Virus record (IMG/VR): IMGVR_UViG_3300048856_000114 | Location: 1-40,918 of that record | Origin: a virus | Taxonomy: Duplodnaviria; Caudoviricetes | Strand: one strand, 5' to 3' | Length of the DNA stretch: 40,918 nt | Part shown: positions 1 to 39,471 of the stretch, piece after piece | How positions within the stretch are numbered: position 1 is the first letter of the stretch | Layout: every line of letters starts with the position of its first letter | The notes under the pieces: model-generated | The model's input: only the letters and a program-made list of their open reading frames with translations | Told to the model about the DNA's origin: nothing | Database searches by the model: none | Program-made: the position numbers and the translations under genes

Positions 1-1188
1 TCAGTTGAGCAGAATGTTCGCGGCCTGTGCTAGTTCTGTCCCATCATCGGCTCGCGGGAACAGGTGCCCGTAGACGTCCATCGTCATCACGATCGACGCG
101 TGGCCCAGCCGCTCCTGCACCATCTTCGCCGGCAGTCCTAGCCCGCCCTCTTCCTTCCGGTTGATCAACCAGCTCGCATAGAAGTGCCGCAGCGCGTGCA
201 TGCCGCTGTATTTGGCCTTGAGCACCGGCTCGCCGCCCTCGCCTTTCTCCACGACCGTGACACCAGCCCGGATCATCGACGGCACCAAACCCTTCTGCAC
301 GATGTTCGCGTGAGAGCGCGGCTCCCCATCGGGATTGGCAAACACCAGCGCAGAGCCATTGGCTTGCGCCAGCTTGTGCTCCTTCAACGTGTTGACCACC
401 ACCGGAGGAACAGGGATCGTGCGAGTACCGGCCTCGGACTTCGGCGGCCCGATCTCTCCGAACTGATCGGCGCGCTGGCTGACACGGATCTCACCACGCT
501 TGAGGTCGACATCCTGCCACCGGAGCCCCCGCAGTTCGGAAGATCGCATACCGGTGAAGACTGCCGTGATGATCAGTGGGCGCCAGTGGTCCGTCAGGGA
601 TGTCACCAGAGCCTTGATCTCCTCGCGAGTAGGTATATCGACCCCGACCTCCAAACGGCCCTTCTGGCGCTTCTCCTGGCGCCTGTCGCGACCCTTACGG
701 CTGGTGCGGATATCCCGAACAGGATTGCGCATGCACAGGCCACGCTCCGCAGCATCGGAAAGGATCGAGCCGAGCGAGGTGAGAACCTTCTTCACCATTG
801 CCGGTGATCGGCCCTCCTTCCGCAGCGTGTCCTCGAAGTCGCGCACCGCCGGCACTGTGAGCTTCGCCAGCAGCACCTGACCGATGAGCGGGACGATGTG
901 ATGCTCGAGGTGAGACTTGCGCTGGTTGATCGTTGAGCGCTCAAGCCCGGCGCTTTCCCCCGAAGTTATCCACAGGCTCGCGGCTTTATCCACGGTGACC
1001 GAAGCGCTGTCGGCGACGTGGACACCCTCCCTCACCTCAACAGAGGCCGTAGCGGCGAACCTGTCAGCGTCCTTCTTGAGCTTGAAGGTTTTCAGTCGGC
1101 GTTTGCCGGTGGTGTCGAAGTAGTCGACGACCCACGCCTGTTTCGCTTCACCCTTAGGCGTGATCCATTCCCGCTTTCGGACTGACAT
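1..1188 (-). CDS. int: Tyrosine recombinase / phage integrase
   Basis: 395 aa with catalytic motifs TGMRSSE, HALRH and LGHASIVMTMDVYGH, plus an N-terminal arm-binding-like segment. Confidence 0.97.
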   Translation of the reverse strand: MSVRKREWITPKGEAKQAWVVDYFDTTGKRRLKTFKLKKDADRFAATASVEVREGVHVADSASVTVDKAASLWITSGESAGLERSTINQRKSHLEHHIVPLIGQVLLAKLTVPAVRDFEDTLRKEGRSPAMVKKVLTSLGSILSDAAERGLCMRNPVRDIRTSRKGRDRRQEKRQKGRLEVGVDIPTREEIKALVTSLTDHWRPLIITAVFTGMRSSELRGLRWQDVDLKRGEIRVSQRADQFGEIGPPKSEAGTRTIPVPPVVVNTLKEHKLAQANGSALVFANPDGEPRSHANIVQKGLVPSMIRAGVTVVEKGEGGEPVLKAKYSGMHALRHFYASWLINRKEEGGLGLPAKMVQERLGHASIVMTMDVYGHLFPRADDGTELAQAANILLN

Positions 1189-1796: not shown

Positions 1797-1988
1797 TTGG
1801 AAAATCCAGGTGACAAGCCGCTGGACTTGGTGTGGGAGGTGTCGGAGATTGCGAAGCTGATTGGCCGATCGGATCGACAGACATTCCATCTCTTAGCGTG
1901 CGGGCAACTACCGGCCCGAAAGGTCGGCGGGCGCTGGGTGGCGGAGCGCAGCAAGCTCCTAAGCTTCTTTATGGGAGAAGCAGCATGA
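1797..1988 (+). CDS. Small HTH DNA-binding protein, excisionase/AlpA-like
   Basis: 63 aa, VSEIAKLIGRSDRQTFHLLACGQLPARKVGGRWVA pattern; TTG start with a GAAGGAG RBS. Confidence 0.85.
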   Translation: MENPGDKPLDLVWEVSEIAKLIGRSDRQTFHLLACGQLPARKVGGRWVAERSKLLSFFMGEAA

Positions 1989-32525: not shown

Positions 32526-32601
32526 TGGTGCCTCCGCCGAGGAGTTGAACCTGGATCTGCTACAAACGAAGTAGCTGCTCTGGCATTGAGCTACGAGAGG
32601 C
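32526..32601 (-). tRNA. Atypical tRNA-Thr(CGT)-like element
   Basis: GCCTCTCG TA GCTC AATGCCA GAGC A GCTAC TTCGTTT GTAGC AGAT CCAGG TTCAACT CCTCGG CGGAGGC A CCA; cloverleaf with bulges, no D-loop GG, U at position 37. Confidence 0.7.
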
Positions 32602-34663: not shown

Positions 34664-34918
34664 TTACACCGCGGGGTGACCCTTCTTCGACGCTTCCACC
34701 AGTGTGACAACGTCGCCTACCGTTACCAATCTATCTGCATCCTTGTCCGAGATCTCAATGCCGAAGACCGCTTCGACTTCCATCACAGCTTGAGTGACTT
34801 CAAGGGAGTCTGCGGCAATTTCCTCAAAGAGGGTATTGTCGCTGATCTTGCCAGGATCCGCCCCCAGGATATCAACGAAAATGGCAGTCAGGCGTGAGCG
34901 AATTTCCTCTGGATGCAT
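34664..34918 (-). CDS. Acyl carrier protein
   Basis: 84 aa, acidic; ADSLE phosphopantetheine site; FGIEISDKDA...TVGD. Confidence 0.9.
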   Translation of the reverse strand: MHPEEIRSRLTAIFVDILGADPGKISDNTLFEEIAADSLEVTQAVMEVEAVFGIEISDKDADRLVTVGDVVTLVEASKKGHPAV

Positions 34919-35336
34919 GAGTTGTCCTCGCAGGAGCGAGAGCATAAAGCATCTCCCAGTCACCGCCTGCTCGATTTGCACGATGATAGGTTCAGGCTAT
35001 CGCGTTTGCCTAATGTGGTCCAGTCGCTGGACGGTACGGTTTCGCCAGTCACTACAGGTGAGCGGGGCTGAGCCTCTGGACCTTAGGGGCAGGGGTAGAT
35101 CAGCGTTAAGATCTGGAGACGGTGCTTGTCGTCGGCGTCATCCGCCAAAGCATAGCTCTCGATGTGGCTTTCGACGCATGACAGCCGAACATCGTGATAT
35201 CTGCGGATCATGAACGTCACGAGGGCTGAGCTCAGGGGGCGAACTCACTCTTGCTGACGCGAGGTGAACGCCCTCGTGAAAGCGCGTCAGGGCGCGAGTG
35301 AACCTTTGGCCCGAGCGAGGCGTCGGGGCGCCCCAC

Positions 35337-35645
35337 CTAATCCTTTGGCTCCGTTCCTGTATGGCGGACAGCCAGGAGATCTCTAATCATTTCGGCTGCA
35401 TCGAGCAGGGCCGCCTGGCTTTGCTCATCTGACGCACTACCCTCTCTTAGAGAAGCTGCCGCCTGTTCTAGTCCCTCAACAGCATCCACGACATTCGGGC
35501 TGGGCCACCGTTGGATTTCGTCCCGTAGATCCCGTATCGTGAGGGCCGCGCGTTCCAGAAGGCGCTGCCTCTCCTGATCGGTTACCTTGGCGATCTCGTT
35601 TGCGGCTCGGACAAGTTCTTGGACAAAGCTGTTCGTCTGACTCAT
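35337..35645 (-). CDS. Helical hypothetical protein
   Basis: 102 aa, GGAG RBS; internal repeat LLERAALTIRDL / LLDAAEMIRDL. Confidence 0.7.
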   Translation of the reverse strand: MSQTNSFVQELVRAANEIAKVTDQERQRLLERAALTIRDLRDEIQRWPSPNVVDAVEGLEQAAASLREGSASDEQSQAALLDAAEMIRDLLAVRHTGTEPKD

Positions 35646-35843
35646 GCATTGATCTCCCAGTCAACCATCCAGATGGCAGCCGGGAGCCGCAGGTCAATAG
35701 AAGCGAATGCCGGTCATGAAACTTCCTTGGTGATGATGGGCAGAGCTATATGTGCGAGCAGCCGAGCCGTTGGTTGCTGCAGGAGATCGCGAACGCCTGC
35801 GGCGAATTCGACCTGAAGGGGAAGAGGAGCTTCGCTGCTTAGG

Positions 35844-36224
35844 TCACCGATAGGTGGTCACAGCGTGCTTGCCGATCTCAATCCACAAGCGGCGGCCCCC
35901 CTTAGCGTTTGCGAACTCCCACTCGAGCTTAATGATGTCTAGGCAGTGATCGATACGCTTGGATGCCATAACAGGTCCGCACGCGCACATGATGAGATTG
36001 AGGTTTTTGAATCGCTCGTCCGTTGTGCCAAAGCGCTTTGACAGTTGCTTCATGTCCCCGTCGACCGCAATGAGGATGGCGTCGTTCTTCATTGCGGTCT
36101 GGCAAACTACTGGGTCTTTTACACCCTGTTCCAAGGCCTGGCGGTGATAAATGACGTCATGGCCAGCGGCGGCCAGAGTTGCGCCTACAGAATCGGGCAC
36201 ACTCTCATCAAGAAAAAACCGCAA
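35844..36224 (-). CDS. PIN-like domain toxin (DUF5615 / VapC45-like)
   Basis: RFFLDESVP...AGHDV...DPVV...LIAVDGD acidic PIN motif; downstream of the DUF433 gene. Confidence 0.85.
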   Translation of the reverse strand: MRFFLDESVPDSVGATLAAAGHDVIYHRQALEQGVKDPVVCQTAMKNDAILIAVDGDMKQLSKRFGTTDERFKNLNLIMCACGPVMASKRIDHCLDIIKLEWEFANAKGGRRLWIEIGKHAVTTYR

Positions 36225-36242
36225 CTGCGCCCTCGTGGCTGA

Positions 36243-36884
36243 TCAAGCTGCGGCTCCAAAATCAAGCGCTGCCTTAATGTCTTCTGTAGTTAAAGTTGGG
36301 TATTCTTTCCGAATCTGGTCTACGGTGTACCCAGCCTCCCAGAACTCCTTGATCGCCTCAACTGGTATTCTAGTGCCTGAGACAACCGGCCTGACTTTCT
36401 TCTTGCCCCGGTACGTATCTATTTTGCCAACGGCCGATTCATCTCTCGCGCGCATCTTCGCCACGGCTTCAGACATGTTGCCGGCGACAACTTCGAGCGG
36501 AATCTGTAGCACCCCCTGACCCGAAAGAACCTCCTCCTTCGTGTTGCTTTCCGGGTTGTGAAAGACCACCTTCTTGTTGAGGACATACAGCGTGGTCTTT
36601 GCCCACAGATCGTCTCCAAGGTGCGCAAGCTTTTGTTTGACGCTCCTCAGATGCTGCATCGAGACCTGAGATTCGTTACGTAGCTTGTTTAAAACCTTGA
36701 GGCAGACGACGTCCCTGAAGGAGTAAAGCCTAGCAAACGCTTCTCTCCGGTTTTCATATGCGAGGCTTGGTACAAAAAACTTAATCTTATCCCAATGCCT
36801 AAGTTGGTCCACAGTTATGCCGGTGAGCCGGGCGACCTGCTCTTCCGTGAACGCCATAACGATGGTTGTGTTGTCGTGGGTCAT
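36243..36884 (-). CDS. MerR-HTH + DUF433 antitoxin (VapB45-like)
   Basis: FTEEQVARLTGITVDQLRHWD...RLYSFRD; PVVSGTRIPV...IRKEYPTLT.EDIKAAL. Confidence 0.9.
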   Translation of the reverse strand: MTHDNTTIVMAFTEEQVARLTGITVDQLRHWDKIKFFVPSLAYENRREAFARLYSFRDVVCLKVLNKLRNESQVSMQHLRSVKQKLAHLGDDLWAKTTLYVLNKKVVFHNPESNTKEEVLSGQGVLQIPLEVVAGNMSEAVAKMRARDESAVGKIDTYRGKKKVRPVVSGTRIPVEAIKEFWEAGYTVDQIRKEYPTLTTEDIKAALDFGAAA

Positions 36885-36973
36885 GATTGGAATGTAGGTT
36901 TTTTGTATCTAGAGAACACTAATATCTTGGGCGGAACTGTCTCCAACCGATCAAATATTGTTGCACATTTCGA

Positions 36974-37141
36974 TCAGAACCCGGGCATGGTGTTCAGCAC
37001 CATGCGCACCACGCCGATGACCTCAACGCTGACCCCATCGTCAGCGTCGAACTGGCGATGCACCACGATCGGCTTGTGCTTCGGGTTGCTCGATCGAGGG
37101 TGGAACTCGGTCCTGTCCTCGTAGATCTCGATCTGCTTCAC
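36974..37141 (-). pseudogene. C-terminal remnant of an S24/LexA-type phage repressor
   Basis: VKQIEIYEDRTEFHPRSSNPKHKPI...VEVIGVVR; no HTH or catalytic Ser region upstream. Confidence 0.7.
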
Positions 37142-37217
37142 TGGCTCCCCCTGAACGACCTCACGTAAGCATGCCTTCTGCTTTGAGTCGAGCCATCTCC
37201 AATCCCCGTTTTCCTCG

Positions 37218-37628
37218 TTACCTCCCGCACCACTTGTTGCCCTTGTTGGGCCAGAGCTGAGCAAGGCCTTCCCGCACCAGAACCTGCCCAGCGTCACGCC
37301 CATCCGGCAGGATGATACGCACTAGCTCACGTCGGTTAGACGTCCGATCTTTCGTGCCGCTTTCATCGATCCGATAGCCGCCAGCCATCAACTGCTGCAA
37401 GCGCTGGGTAGCCTGCTTCCCGATCTGCCGCTCCCGCGCACATTCTGCTCCAGATGTTTCCGGCGTGTCGATCTCCAGGAGGCGCCACTTCACCCCGCGA
37501 TCCCAGCCCGTATCGCCATCCACCAGGCAGGTGACCTTGCGCGCCGCTCGATCGCCGCCGGAGCAAAGCGGAATGGCCCACGCGGACGACGCGGTCATCA
37601 GCAGCAGGGCTGTAGTCAATCTCAGCAT
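37218..37628 (-). CDS. Secreted thermonuclease (SNase)-family protein
   Basis: Signal peptide; VDGDT, RLLEIDTPE, LVREGLA...WC. Confidence 0.9.
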   Translation of the reverse strand: MLRLTTALLLMTASSAWAIPLCSGGDRAARKVTCLVDGDTGWDRGVKWRLLEIDTPETSGAECARERQIGKQATQRLQQLMAGGYRIDESGTKDRTSNRRELVRIILPDGRDAGQVLVREGLAQLWPNKGNKWCGR

Positions 37629-37870
37629 AAGGATTCGCAAGGCCTACCGTCATTGTCACGGTCGAGCTTCCCGCCCCAGGAGCAGCTACGCAGATAATAT
37701 TGCGCTTCCTCGCAGCTCTGGATCTTCGAGCAAGTCTTCCGCGGCTGGCACGACCAGCTTTGGGCTGTCTCAAGTTGTGGGATGGGTGTCATTGGACCGG
37801 CTGGCGCGATTGCTGCTGCGGTGAATAAGGTGATGATCAGCGTATGCAAGCTATCCCCCTCAGGTTGCAT
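37622..37870 (-). CDS. Excalibur calcium-binding domain protein
   Basis: CSKIQSCEEA...LDRDNDGRPCESLC. Confidence 0.9.
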   Translation of the reverse strand: MQPEGDSLHTLIITLFTAAAIAPAGPMTPIPQLETAQSWSCQPRKTCSKIQSCEEAQYYLRSCSWGGKLDRDNDGRPCESLC

Positions 37871-37974
37871 GTGGCGATAGAAGCACTGAGCTACTGATTC
37901 CGCCAGCTGACAATACCTGCCAGCCGAAGTAAGCGCACCTCGACATATGGATCGTTTGATGTTCCACTTCGCTC

Positions 37975-38157
37975 ATGAGGAAAACGTTCAACGAACTGAA
38001 GCTGTCGCCGGAGCTTGCCGCGGAACTGCATCTGCGAGGATATCACACGCTCGATGATCTAAAGGTTCTGACAACTCAGCTTCTGCACCGCATTCCCGGC
38101 ATGGAAGGCGAGAACTGGCACAAGGTGGCGGACGCGCTCGGCCGGCCCCGCTCTTAA
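37975..38157 (+). CDS. Stand-alone RNA polymerase alpha-CTD-like (helix-hairpin-helix) protein
   Basis: ELKLS...L...GYHTLDDL...LLHRIPGMEG...KVADAL. Confidence 0.65.
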   Translation: MRKTFNELKLSPELAAELHLRGYHTLDDLKVLTTQLLHRIPGMEGENWHKVADALGRPRS

Positions 38158-38188
38158 CCCATCGTCTCTCAAGACGCGCCCCCTACCC

Positions 38189-38497
38189 CTAACCGGACGC
38201 AGGGCCTTTTTTACGTTCTTGCGACAGCCGCCTCTTTTCTCGCATGGCGTGGCTAAATCGTTCACCGATACCGGATGCTGTTTCGACCGCTCCGAGGTTC
38301 ATCGCGCGGTCTAAATCATCCCGATACCAGAACTTCCGTCTTGTCGTGTCAACCACACGGGGCTGGGGGTAGATCGTGCCGACACGTTCGAGGAAGTCTT
38401 CGACGTGGCGTTCGCCGCAATAACCGGCAGCCATATCCGCCAGCATGCGGGGAGGCCAGCTCCCTGGAGGGACGACTGATCGATGGCGGTTGCTCAT
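38189..38497 (-). CDS. Excisionase-like winged-helix protein
   Basis: WPPRMLADMAAGYCGE...YPQP...KFWYRDDLD; GAAGG RBS. Confidence 0.7.
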   Translation of the reverse strand: MSNRHRSVVPPGSWPPRMLADMAAGYCGERHVEDFLERVGTIYPQPRVVDTTRRKFWYRDDLDRAMNLGAVETASGIGERFSHAMREKRRLSQERKKGPASG

Positions 38498-38531
38498 CGC
38501 GGTTCCTTCTCTGATGGCGCCACGTGTGCTT

Positions 38532-38768
38532 CTATTTATTTGGCTTACGACGAGGGTTTTCAAACTCGGCGAACTCTTTGGCGACATCGAAGTCATCCCA
38601 GCTCTCGAGACCGTCGGGAACTAAGCCATCCACTGGTTCACCTTCCTTCGCAGCCGGCAGCACCGTCACCACCAGCGTCTTCAGGTCGATCTGCAAGACG
38701 GAGCCGACGCTTTTCGCAGCACGAAAGATTCGCTCCATGTCAGCCTGACGGAAAGAAGCTCTCGTCAC
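38532..38768 (-). CDS. Small integrase-associated-type protein (QAD..R type), putative RDF
   Basis: MTRASFRQADMERIFRAAKSVG; GTGA overlap with the upstream gene. Confidence 0.65.
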   Translation of the reverse strand: MTRASFRQADMERIFRAAKSVGSVLQIDLKTLVVTVLPAAKEGEPVDGLVPDGLESWDDFDVAKEFAEFENPRRKPNK

Positions 38769-39016
38769 TTCTCACCTCCGCGAGACAATATCTCGTCGAT
38801 GCGGTTGCCAGCTTCCTGCGGAAGGTCCGAGAAAGCGGCGTCTAAGGCGATACGATCCCAAACCACACGTCCGTCAATCCTCTTCGGCTTTGGCATGCGC
38901 TTGTCGGCAACCATCTCATCGAACTTCGTCGTGCCTACGCCAACATAGCGCGCGGCTTCTTCGCGCGACATTCCACGAGGCGGGTACGACAAGGAGTCTG
39001 AAAGTCTCGCCGTCAC
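38765..39016 (-). CDS. AlpA/excisionase-family HTH protein
   Basis: PPRGMSREEAARYVGVGTTKFDEMVADKRMPKPKRIDGRVVWDR. Confidence 0.88.
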   Translation of the reverse strand: MTARLSDSLSYPPRGMSREEAARYVGVGTTKFDEMVADKRMPKPKRIDGRVVWDRIALDAAFSDLPQEAGNRIDEILSRGGEK

Positions 39017-39047
39017 GTCGGCTCCAGCGTTTCGGGACCGTACGGAA

Positions 39048-39224
39048 TCATAGTCGAATGCGCTCCTTCTTCACCTGCTGCTGGAGCTTCTGCATTTCGG
39101 GATAGTCGGGCGCAACCCGGATGATGACGCCGTCAATCTCCACCTCGACACGCATGCCGGTCTTCTTGGCGACGGCCGCCATGCGCATCAGGTCGCCTTG
39201 ATTGACGAGGGCTCTCTTTGTCAT
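39048..39224 (-). CDS. Small integrase-associated-type protein (QGD..R type), putative RDF
   Basis: MTKRALVNQGDLMRMAAVAKKTGMRVEVEIDGVIIRVAPD. Confidence 0.65.
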   Translation of the reverse strand: MTKRALVNQGDLMRMAAVAKKTGMRVEVEIDGVIIRVAPDYPEMQKLQQQVKKERIRL

Positions 39225-39242
39225 TCTGCGAAGCTGCCAGAG

Positions 39243-39272
39243 CATGTCGCATGTTGCAATCCATGTCGCATG
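39243..39272. repeat. Direct repeats CATGTCGCATG x2 with an intervening CATGTTGCA; putative integrase arm-type sites
   Basis: Copies at 39243-39253 and 39262-39272, about 130 bp from the tRNA 3' end. Confidence 0.6.
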
Positions 39273-39339
39273 GAGTCGCCGTAGTCGGGCGGAAACGGCC
39301 GGAAATCACGGGGATTAGCTGCAGCACTGCGCAACATAG

Positions 39340-39371
39340 AAAAAGAGCGGCATCATGCCTGATACCGCTCT
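39340..39371 (-). terminator. Rho-independent terminator downstream of tRNA-Cys
   Basis: Minus strand AGAGCGGTATCA-GGCA-TGATGCCGCTCT followed by TTTT. Confidence 0.8.
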
Positions 39372-39397
39372 ATCTAGCTGATTTGCTAGTGAATTCT

Positions 39398-39471
39398 TGG
39401 AGGCCTCGCCCGGAATTGAACCGGGGTACAAGGATTTGCAGTCCTCTGCGTCACCACTCCGCCACGAGGCC
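39398..39471 (-). tRNA. tRNA-Cys(GCA), probable attachment site
   Basis: GGCCTCGTGGCGGAGTGGTGACGCAGAGGACTGCAAATCCTTGTACCCCGGTTCAATTCCGGGCGAGGCCTCCA; canonical 74-nt cloverleaf. Confidence 0.98.

What the first reader, a model, noticed from the sequence alone, without database searches (positions are those of the whole stretch)
38189..39272. Integrase-less operon of four different excisionase/RDF-like genes beside the att site
Seen: four small co-oriented genes alternate between two types, QxD..R-type (39048-39224, 38532-38768) and AlpA/Xis winged-helix type (38765-39016, 38189-38497). All look intact, two overlap by GTGA, and no integrase follows; the operon runs into a convergent gene. The element already has its own Xis-like gene at 1797. 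Recalled knowledge: each of these gene types usually occurs singly, directly upstream of a tyrosine integrase in alphaproteobacterial prophages. Inference: this may be a collected panel of heterologous recombination directionality factors that excises or destabilises competing resident prophages, or blocks integration of incoming temperate phages. That would be an inter-element warfare system I do not recognise as described. In the excised circle the operon would lie downstream of int across attP.
Basis: partly seen in the sequence, partly recalled or inferred. Interest (0 to 1): 0.85.

Follow-up and report, generated by a model that had tools for sequence, protein, structure and literature searches.

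The report
Prophage array of borrowed excisionases
A rhizobial prophage carries, next to its attachment site, four small genes of types that other phages keep singly in front of their own integrases; similar shuffled arrays of two to eight such genes recur in many other elements, and they likely serve to unseat or block rival temperate phages.

Summary
Four intact co-oriented genes start 20 nt after the element's integrase arm sites, with no integrase remnant. All four types normally sit directly before a tyrosine integrase of other phages (g2 65 of 68 loci; g4 27 of 31 informative; g1/g3 family 28 of 45 copies in a 400-genome sample). g2 and g4 are Xis-like. g1 and g3 are distant homologues from an unannotated helix-hairpin family that fills the xis slot; their RDF role is inferred from position only. 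The block is not a one-off: 31 integrase-free arrays (about 27 independent) of 2-8 Xis-slot domains were found, with varying content, order and fusions, beside many tRNAs and several integrase types. Most pairs show purifying selection, and none of 28 arrays tested holds this phage's own xis type. Best reading (0.45, untested): a panel of foreign directionality factors that pushes rival phages toward excision or failed integration. No expression or functional evidence was obtained. The closest published case is a single orphan excisionase (EcCIMP1 alpA_1); nine paper searches found no arrays. This scan noted similar arrays before in Pseudomonas and Stenotrophomonas (unchecked notes).

The parts
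39048..39224 (-). g1: 58-aa helix-hairpin ('QxD') protein; foreign xis-slot type whose nearest integrase-linked relatives target tRNA-Arg(tct)
38765..39016 (-). g2: 83-aa Xis/AlpA-like winged-helix protein; foreign type (cognate modules at tRNA-Phe, -Glu, -Met, one -Cys)
   Evidence: phrog_25900 E 7e-17, phrog_66 E 1.5e-6; TIGR01764 below cut-off
38532..38768 (-). g3: 78-aa helix-hairpin ('QxD') protein; foreign type whose integrase-linked relatives target tRNA-Gly
   Evidence: the downstream ORF of cognates hits phrog_1 integrase
38189..38497 (-). g4: 102-aa protein with predicted Xis fold; foreign type (cognate modules at tRNA-Lys where visible)
   Evidence: top three structural matches are excisionases, Z 6.4/5.7/5.7
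39243..39272 (-). three tandem TGCRACAY repeats, read as arm-type sites of the element's own integrase (attL arm); they end 20 nt before the g1 start
39344..39371 (-). intrinsic-terminator-like hairpin between the tRNA and the array
39398..39471 (-). tRNA-Cys(gca), the integration site (attL core); host homology starts here
1..1188 (-). the element's own tyrosine integrase, at the opposite end
1797..1988 (+). the element's own xis-like gene
   Evidence: phrog_1840; same gene beside the same integrase type in L149, L228, L239, L304
37975..38157 (+). convergent 60-aa gene (phrog_34844, weak helix-hairpin-helix match) that closes the array

Best explanation
The four genes are an accessory cassette of xis-slot genes of types that other temperate phages keep in front of their integrases, and it likely acts in trans as a panel of foreign recombination directionality factors against rival phages. 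Shown: the cassette lies in the variable cargo slot behind attL of a tailed prophage; each gene type belongs to a different foreign integration module; such arrays recur with shuffled content; most pairs are under purifying selection. Inferred: the cassette is transcribed in the lysogen (or early in infection) from a promoter in or near the attL arm. Each protein then binds the att arm or integrase of the phage family it came from and tips that integrase toward excision. An incoming rival would fail to integrate, and a resident rival would be excised without induction and lost by dilution. The carrier is spared because its own xis type is not in the array. For g1 and g3 the RDF role itself is inferred from gene position only.
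For: Integrase linkage of homologues: g2 65 of 68 loci; g4 27 of 50 loci (19 end at the contig edge, 4 have no integrase match); g1/g3 family 28 of 45 copies in 41 regions from a 400-genome family sample; named phages RHph_N28_2, Rivra and phi2LM21 show gene-int adjacency. In cognate g1/g3 loci, 0 of 59 upstream ORFs from 12 loci hit an excisionase PHROG. g4 model matches Pukovnik Xis (Z 6.4, rmsd 2.5, 54 aligned), GIsul2 Xis and RdfS. Other array members hit HTH_17, Phage_AlpA and PrtN/phrog_1300 excisionase. 28 arrays have no integrase hit inside or within 1 kb downstream, and none holds the window phage's own xis type; 3 more arrays came from an independent arm-site search. dN/dS is 0.02-0.12 in 10 of 11 unsaturated QxD array pairs and 0.02-0.19 in the other winged-helix types except the g4 pair. 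The array/cognate label changes 14 times on a 111-row tree, at least 3 forced by well-supported branches. Cross-acting RDFs are documented: EcCIMP1 alpA_1 and Vibrio VefA/B/C. RDFs drive excision and prevent re-integration (PMC3509656 abstract).
Against: No expression data: the one RNA run laid gave no credible cover of the array. No promoter was found by the sigma-70 scan, and a terminator separates the tRNA from the array. g1/g3 have no family match in Pfam, PHROGs or NCBIfam and model as helix plus beta-hairpin rather than a winged helix. The best published orphan excisionase helps the other phage, and two other foreign AlpAs inhibited rather than promoted its replication, so the sign of the effect is open. 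Three of the least diverged pairs gave dN/dS 0.51, 0.63 and 0.43 on few changes. Many pairs include time spent in cognate modules. The window genes are 9-25% diverged at non-synonymous sites from their nearest relatives with near-saturated synonymous sites, so they may no longer fit today's targets. One genome (G265) holds an array and an intact g3-type prophage module about 5 kb apart, although the types do not match. Only 7 of 32 same-family att slots hold any Xis-like gene.
Confidence: 0.45

Rival explanations
1. Dominant-negative jammers: the foreign Xis-like proteins bind rival att arms or integrases unproductively and block the rival's excision when both prophages are induced, so the carrier wins the burst.
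For: [quoted passage not shown] Array members are diverged from cognates and often fused to one another or to an extra winged-helix-like tail, which could spoil normal RDF geometry.
Against: The window's four genes are unfused and keep the cognate C-terminal motifs. The position in the att-side cargo slot fits lysogen expression better than lytic expression (inference).
Confidence: 0.2
2. Transcription-factor panel: the proteins act on promoters (int autoregulation, early lytic or satellite promoters) of other elements or of the host, not on recombination.
For: Xis-fold proteins double as regulators: TorI represses intS and the tor operon, AlpA is the PICI master regulator, XisF4 is excisionase and activator. 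Arrays include AlpA and PrtN family members.
Against: The common denominator of array members is the xis slot, not the fold: helix-hairpin and winged-helix types are mixed. Ordinary phage repressors were not seen in the arrays on reading the ORFs (by eye, not a count).
Confidence: 0.15
3. Helpful key ring: the cassette excises co-resident elements for the carrier's benefit (helper mobilisation, freeing att sites, rescue of xis-defective neighbours), as proposed for EcCIMP1 alpA_1.
For: alpA_1 sits at the end opposite the integrase and supports helper excision. Some arrays follow P4-like integrases (L129, L222), and 0 of 5 further array records had a PF03354 terminase (one terminase family only).
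Against: The window element encodes its own terminase, capsid, portal, tape measure and endolysin and needs no helper; 3 of 5 other array records also hit PF03354.
Confidence: 0.13
4. Neutral debris: leftovers of successive integrations or deletions at a tRNA hotspot.
For: The block lies at a tRNA 3' end; single orphan copies occur (5 of 14 orphan loci in the genome sample); one broken array member was seen (g3 type in L161).
Against: No integrase fragments. The donors target other tRNAs than the one the array lies at. Genes are tightly packed and intact, and dN/dS is low in most pairs, including pairs inside array-only clades.
Confidence: 0.05

Closest known systems
EcCIMP1 alpA_1 (E. coli MP1 PICI; PMC11773190, abstract and passages seen, supplements not read)
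   Same: An integrase-free excisionase of a foreign phage's type at the end of the element opposite its own integrase; dispensable for its own excision; acts in trans on another element.
   Different: One gene, on a satellite, helping its helper. Here four genes of two folds (up to eight elsewhere), shuffled between elements, on a phage with its own morphogenesis genes.
Vibrio cholerae VefA/VefB/VefC cross-talk (PMC7721734 passage; Carpenter 2016 seen only as a reference entry)
   Same: RDFs acting on non-cognate islands; two RDF genes on one island.
   Different: Related RDFs of resident islands that also serve their own element; not a variable collection of unrelated foreign types.
Classical tyrosine-integrase RDFs (Pukovnik Xis 4j2n, RdfS 8dgl, GIsul2 Xis 8c3t, TorI, lambda Xis)
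   Same: g4 predicted fold and g2 profile matches; the gene types normally abut a tyrosine integrase.
   Different: Here detached from integrase and att arms and arrayed; g1/g3 model as helix plus beta-hairpin and match no RDF profile.
KplE1 attL/intS promoter overlap (PMC2951348, abstract and passages)
   Same: A gene starts right behind integrase arm sites in attL, so Int binding could control its promoter.
   Different: In KplE1 the controlled gene is the element's own integrase; here it would be the foreign-gene array. No promoter was mapped.
Anti-CRISPR gene clusters (recalled, no call)
   Same: Variable arrays of small genes collected against several rival specificities.
   Different: Different targets and protein families; analogy of architecture only.

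Membership tests
Xis/AlpA-type RDF (g2, g4) | small basic protein with MerR-like winged-helix fold | tested here: met
   g4 model: top three matches are excisionases, Z 6.4/5.7/5.7, middling Z; g2: phrog_66 E 1.5e-6, TIGR01764 below cut-off
Xis/AlpA-type RDF (g2, g4) | gene type normally adjacent to a tyrosine integrase | tested here: met
   65 of 68 and 27 of 31 informative loci; many g4 loci are near-identical
Xis/AlpA-type RDF (g2, g4) | cognate integrase and att arms on the same element | tested here: not met
   the only integrase found in the record is of another type with its own xis
Xis/AlpA-type RDF (g2, g4) | binds att DNA and stimulates excision | not testable with these tools
   needs recombination assays
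RDF (g1, g3) | occupies the xis slot, coupled to the integrase start, no other xis nearby | tested here: met
   where a start could be placed, QxD stop to int start is -23 to +10 nt; 0 of 59 upstream ORFs in 12 loci hit an excisionase PHROG
RDF (g1, g3) | winged-helix fold | tested here: inconclusive
   model has H8-21, E24-28, E33-37, pTM 0.38; fold searches uninformative
RDF (g1, g3) | required for excision of the cognate phage | not testable with these tools
   needs a deletion mutant
EcCIMP1-type helper-excising orphan excisionase | orphan foreign-type xis at the end opposite the integrase | tested here: met
   same layout in L045 and G188
EcCIMP1-type helper-excising orphan excisionase | carried by a helper-dependent satellite | tested here: not met
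   terminase, capsid, portal, tape measure, endolysin present
EcCIMP1-type helper-excising orphan excisionase | complements the other phage's xis deletion | not testable with these tools
   bench test
Catalogued anti-phage defence systems (PADLOC 2.0) | match to a system's protein models | tested here: inconclusive
   only a weak g2-mad1 HTH match, E 0.0017; none for g1, g3, g4; the library dates from 2023

The most novel reading that the evidence does not exclude
Temperate phages and related elements of Rhizobiaceae keep an updatable arsenal of excision factors captured from rival phages at their att end and use it to evict resident prophages and deny lysogeny to newcomers: a form of phage-phage warfare aimed at site-specific recombination. 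Its commonest component is a previously unannotated helix-hairpin class of directionality factor.
Probability: 0.35. Interest if true: 0.92.

Novelty: new variant of a known kind. Interest (0 to 1): 0.8.

Why it matters
If true, it adds recombination directionality to the known fronts of conflict between mobile elements and helps explain which prophages can coexist in one cell. It makes that question directly testable, because each array gene names its likely target (phage family and tRNA site). It would also supply a new RDF family for tyrosine integrases (406 representatives at 50% identity) and natural tools for curing prophages from rhizobial strains. Even if the sign of the effect differs (jamming or helping), selected multi-specificity xis arrays were not found in the papers searched.

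Tried and rejected
Single-sequence viral scans for g1 and g3 found nothing; alignments were needed. Fold searches with the g3 model gave no usable match (best Z 2.7 in PDB, best E 0.026 in BFVD), and sequence searches of solved structures gave nothing for g2 or the g1/g3 profile; this shows neither a new fold nor a different one. ESM Atlas hits for g1 and g3 were under 0.9 and unnamed. Foldseek against PDB for g4 had no hit at E <= 0.001. Complex prediction of g3 (1-60) with the tRNA-Gly integrase returned 'no answer', score 0.00: no evidence either way. RNA evidence: one metatranscriptome laid, only a 35-nt match with unrelated flanks inside the array; contigs cannot show absence. The sigma-70 scan found no promoter. 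The repeat before g1 was first considered an operator and rejected in favour of integrase arm sites. A genome-level exclusion test (array versus matching prophage) was dropped for lack of power: 9 array loci and 28 cognate copies in 400 genomes. The tRNA-Gly integrase was missed by Pfam single searches, PDB and hhalign and confirmed only by PHROGs and weak Pfam hits in 7 of 24 members. Paper searches found no description of multi-excisionase arrays; the library lacks most subscription papers.

Full report
Setting. The window is a whole virus record. It encodes a tyrosine integrase at 1-1188, its own xis-like gene at 1797-1988, anti-repressor, primase, terminase, capsid, portal, tape measure and endolysin, then a stretch of accessory genes, the four genes in question, and tRNA-Cys at 39398-39471. 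Contigs from other runs match from the tRNA rightwards and break off at its 3' end, so the tRNA marks attL. Named homologues are from Rhizobium, Agrobacterium, Neorhizobium and Sinorhizobium, so a Rhizobiaceae host is inferred.

The observation. The four ORFs, the GTGA overlap and the convergent gene are as described. Seven integrases, including the types linked to g1-g4 elsewhere, leave no trace in 35000-39400 (best E 0.11), and DNA similarity to cognate loci stops inside the gene bounds. Three TGCRACAY repeats end 20 nt before the g1 start. A related phage (L149) has the same repeats on both sides of a tRNA-derived core directly after its integrase, 79% identical to the window over 101 nt. 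The motif occurs in 27 of 401 family genomes and in none with the reversed control; 19 of those 27 carry this integrase type, against 66 of 401 overall. In 26 of the 32 places fetched (of 35 found; a contig edge, an int-side copy and an overlapping duplicate were left out) it lies 107-133 nt behind a tRNA. I read the repeats as integrase arm sites.

What the genes are. g2 matches phrog_25900 and the excisionase family phrog_66; 65 of 68 viral loci have an integrase within 1.3 kb downstream, as do phages Rivra and phi2LM21. g4's model matches three solved excisionases best, at middling Z; 27 of 50 loci have an integrase next, 19 end at the contig edge and 4 have none detected (three arrays and L050); many of these loci are near-identical. 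g1 and g3 are distant homologues with no family match; the g3 model is one helix and a beta-hairpin. In a sample of 400 family genomes 55 had a match at E <= 0.01. I fetched 40 regions around the stronger matches and added L162: 28 of 45 copies are directly before a tyrosine integrase and 17 copies in 14 loci are not. Cognate copies overlap or abut the integrase start, and none of 59 upstream ORFs from 12 such loci hits an excisionase family. So this family fills the xis slot; that it is an RDF is inference. The cognate modules point at tRNA-Arg, -Gly, -Met, -Leu, -Pro, -Ser, -Phe, -Glu and -Lys; one g2 locus points at tRNA-Cys.

The array is a recurring structure. 28 loci, the window included, hold two to eight xis-slot domains in one orientation, with no integrase hit inside or within 1 kb downstream. 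Three more came from the arm-site search, which did not use the proteins. Near-copies reduce the 31 to about 27 (one search tested the 28). Content and order differ: g1-g2-g3-g4 here, xA-g4-g1-xF in L043, eight domains in L142 (labels are my own HMM names). Other members are HTH_17, Phage_AlpA and PrtN proteins and further unannotated types; fusions are common. Arrays lie behind tRNA-Cys, -Val, -Thr, -Arg, -Gln, -Leu, -His and -Met, with this integrase type, with P4-like integrases, and near a serine recombinase. Three of five records tested carry a PF03354 terminase, a fourth has a sub-threshold PF03237 match, and none of five others hit PF03354, so carriers are not all shown to be full phages. 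The slot is general cargo: only 7 of 32 same-family slots hold Xis-like genes, 4 as arrays. The window phage's own xis type is in none of the 28 arrays.

Selection and origin. Among array copies of the g1/g3 family, 10 of 11 unsaturated pairs have dN/dS 0.02-0.12, one very close pair 0.51, and 5 pairs are saturated; other types give 0.02-0.19, except two close pairs at 0.63 and 0.43 (pairs with pN over 0.25 were dropped). Several low pairs lie in well-supported array-only clades, so selection acted after loss of the integrase; other pairs include time in cognate modules. On a 111-row, 47-column tree the array/cognate label changes 14 times (shuffled mean 36.7; at least 3 forced by starred branches). 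This fits repeated exchange with cognate modules, but the tree is weak and unrooted. The window genes are old captures: synonymous sites are near saturation against most of the nearest relatives.

How it likely works. Established: RDFs drive excision and prevent re-integration (PMC3509656 abstract), and RDFs can act across elements (PMC11773190 passages; PMC7721734 passage). A collection of foreign xis-slot genes, kept without their integrases and without the carrier's own type, only makes sense if it acts on other elements (inference). A self-sufficient phage has no helper to mobilise, so I favour hostility: blocked lysogenisation of newcomers and excision without induction of residents (0.45). 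Jamming of rival excision (0.20), transcriptional action (0.15), helpful mobilisation (0.13) and debris (0.05) remain. Nothing here shows expression, binding or the sign of the effect. The start of g1 just behind the arm sites suggests control by Int as in KplE1, but no promoter was found.

Comparison and novelty. The closest case is EcCIMP1 alpA_1, a single orphan excisionase at a satellite's far end. This element works like it in layout but fails membership on being a satellite, and it carries a variable multi-family panel. Nine searches found no paper on such arrays. I saw abstracts or passages only and read no supplements; the EcCIMP1 tables of further excisionases could bear on the comparison. 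Two unchecked notes of this scan describe similar arrays in a Pseudomonas prophage and a Stenotrophomonas island; they are leads to a wider range, not support. Verdict: real, recurrent and selected; new variant of trans-acting RDFs with an undescribed architecture; interest 0.8.

Noticed in passing
L136/L168, L130, L139, L149, L166, L175, L219, L236, L045, L129: Array members are often fused to a C-terminal winged-helix-like tail (weak HTH_34 match in one) that was not seen on integrase-linked copies.
   Followed up: partly
L045:1383-2030, L162:5480-6004, L220, L236, L146:695-1345: Two different Xis-type domains fused in one ORF (g4+AlpA, xB+g2, g2+xB, xF+xB, g1-type+xE).
   Followed up: partly
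window 35337-35645 (-): 102-aa protein resembling, by eye, the ORF that follows arrays in L045, L129, L142, L146, L161, L222 and L236; no family match.
   Followed up: no
L053:1935-3107, L046, L130, L220, L226, L236, L318: An unannotated 390-490-aa protein recurs next to arrays, in L046 behind a serine recombinase; no family match of note.
   Followed up: partly
window 32530-32599 (-): ARAGORN calls a tRNA-Thr(cgt) inside the accessory region; the sequence looks irregular and may be a pseudo-tRNA.
   Followed up: no
window 35844-36884 (-) and 37218-37870 (-): MerR-DUF433 plus PIN/DUF5615 pair (toxin-antitoxin-like) and an Excalibur plus staphylococcal-nuclease pair downstream of the array.
   Followed up: no
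L048 and L049, 6001-6250: Cognate g4-type gene frameshifted in front of an intact integrase; the record of L048 shares its genome id with the array record L161.
   Followed up: no
L053:1503-1793, L239, L288, L318, L229: Further helix-hairpin types beyond g1/g3 occur in arrays, suggesting a wider unannotated superfamily.
   Followed up: no
L150:4209-5351 and relatives (alignment A4): The tRNA-Gly integrase linked to g3-type genes is so divergent that Pfam and NCBIfam miss it; PHROGs finds it.
   Followed up: yes
L228/L319 and L306 (G220, G379): The two closest integrase relatives also sit at tRNA-Cys and carry a single orphan g1-type or g4-type gene in the same slot.
   Followed up: partly
window 34664-34981 (-): ORF that looks like an acyl carrier protein (recalled motif, not tested) among host-like accessory genes.
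   Followed up: no
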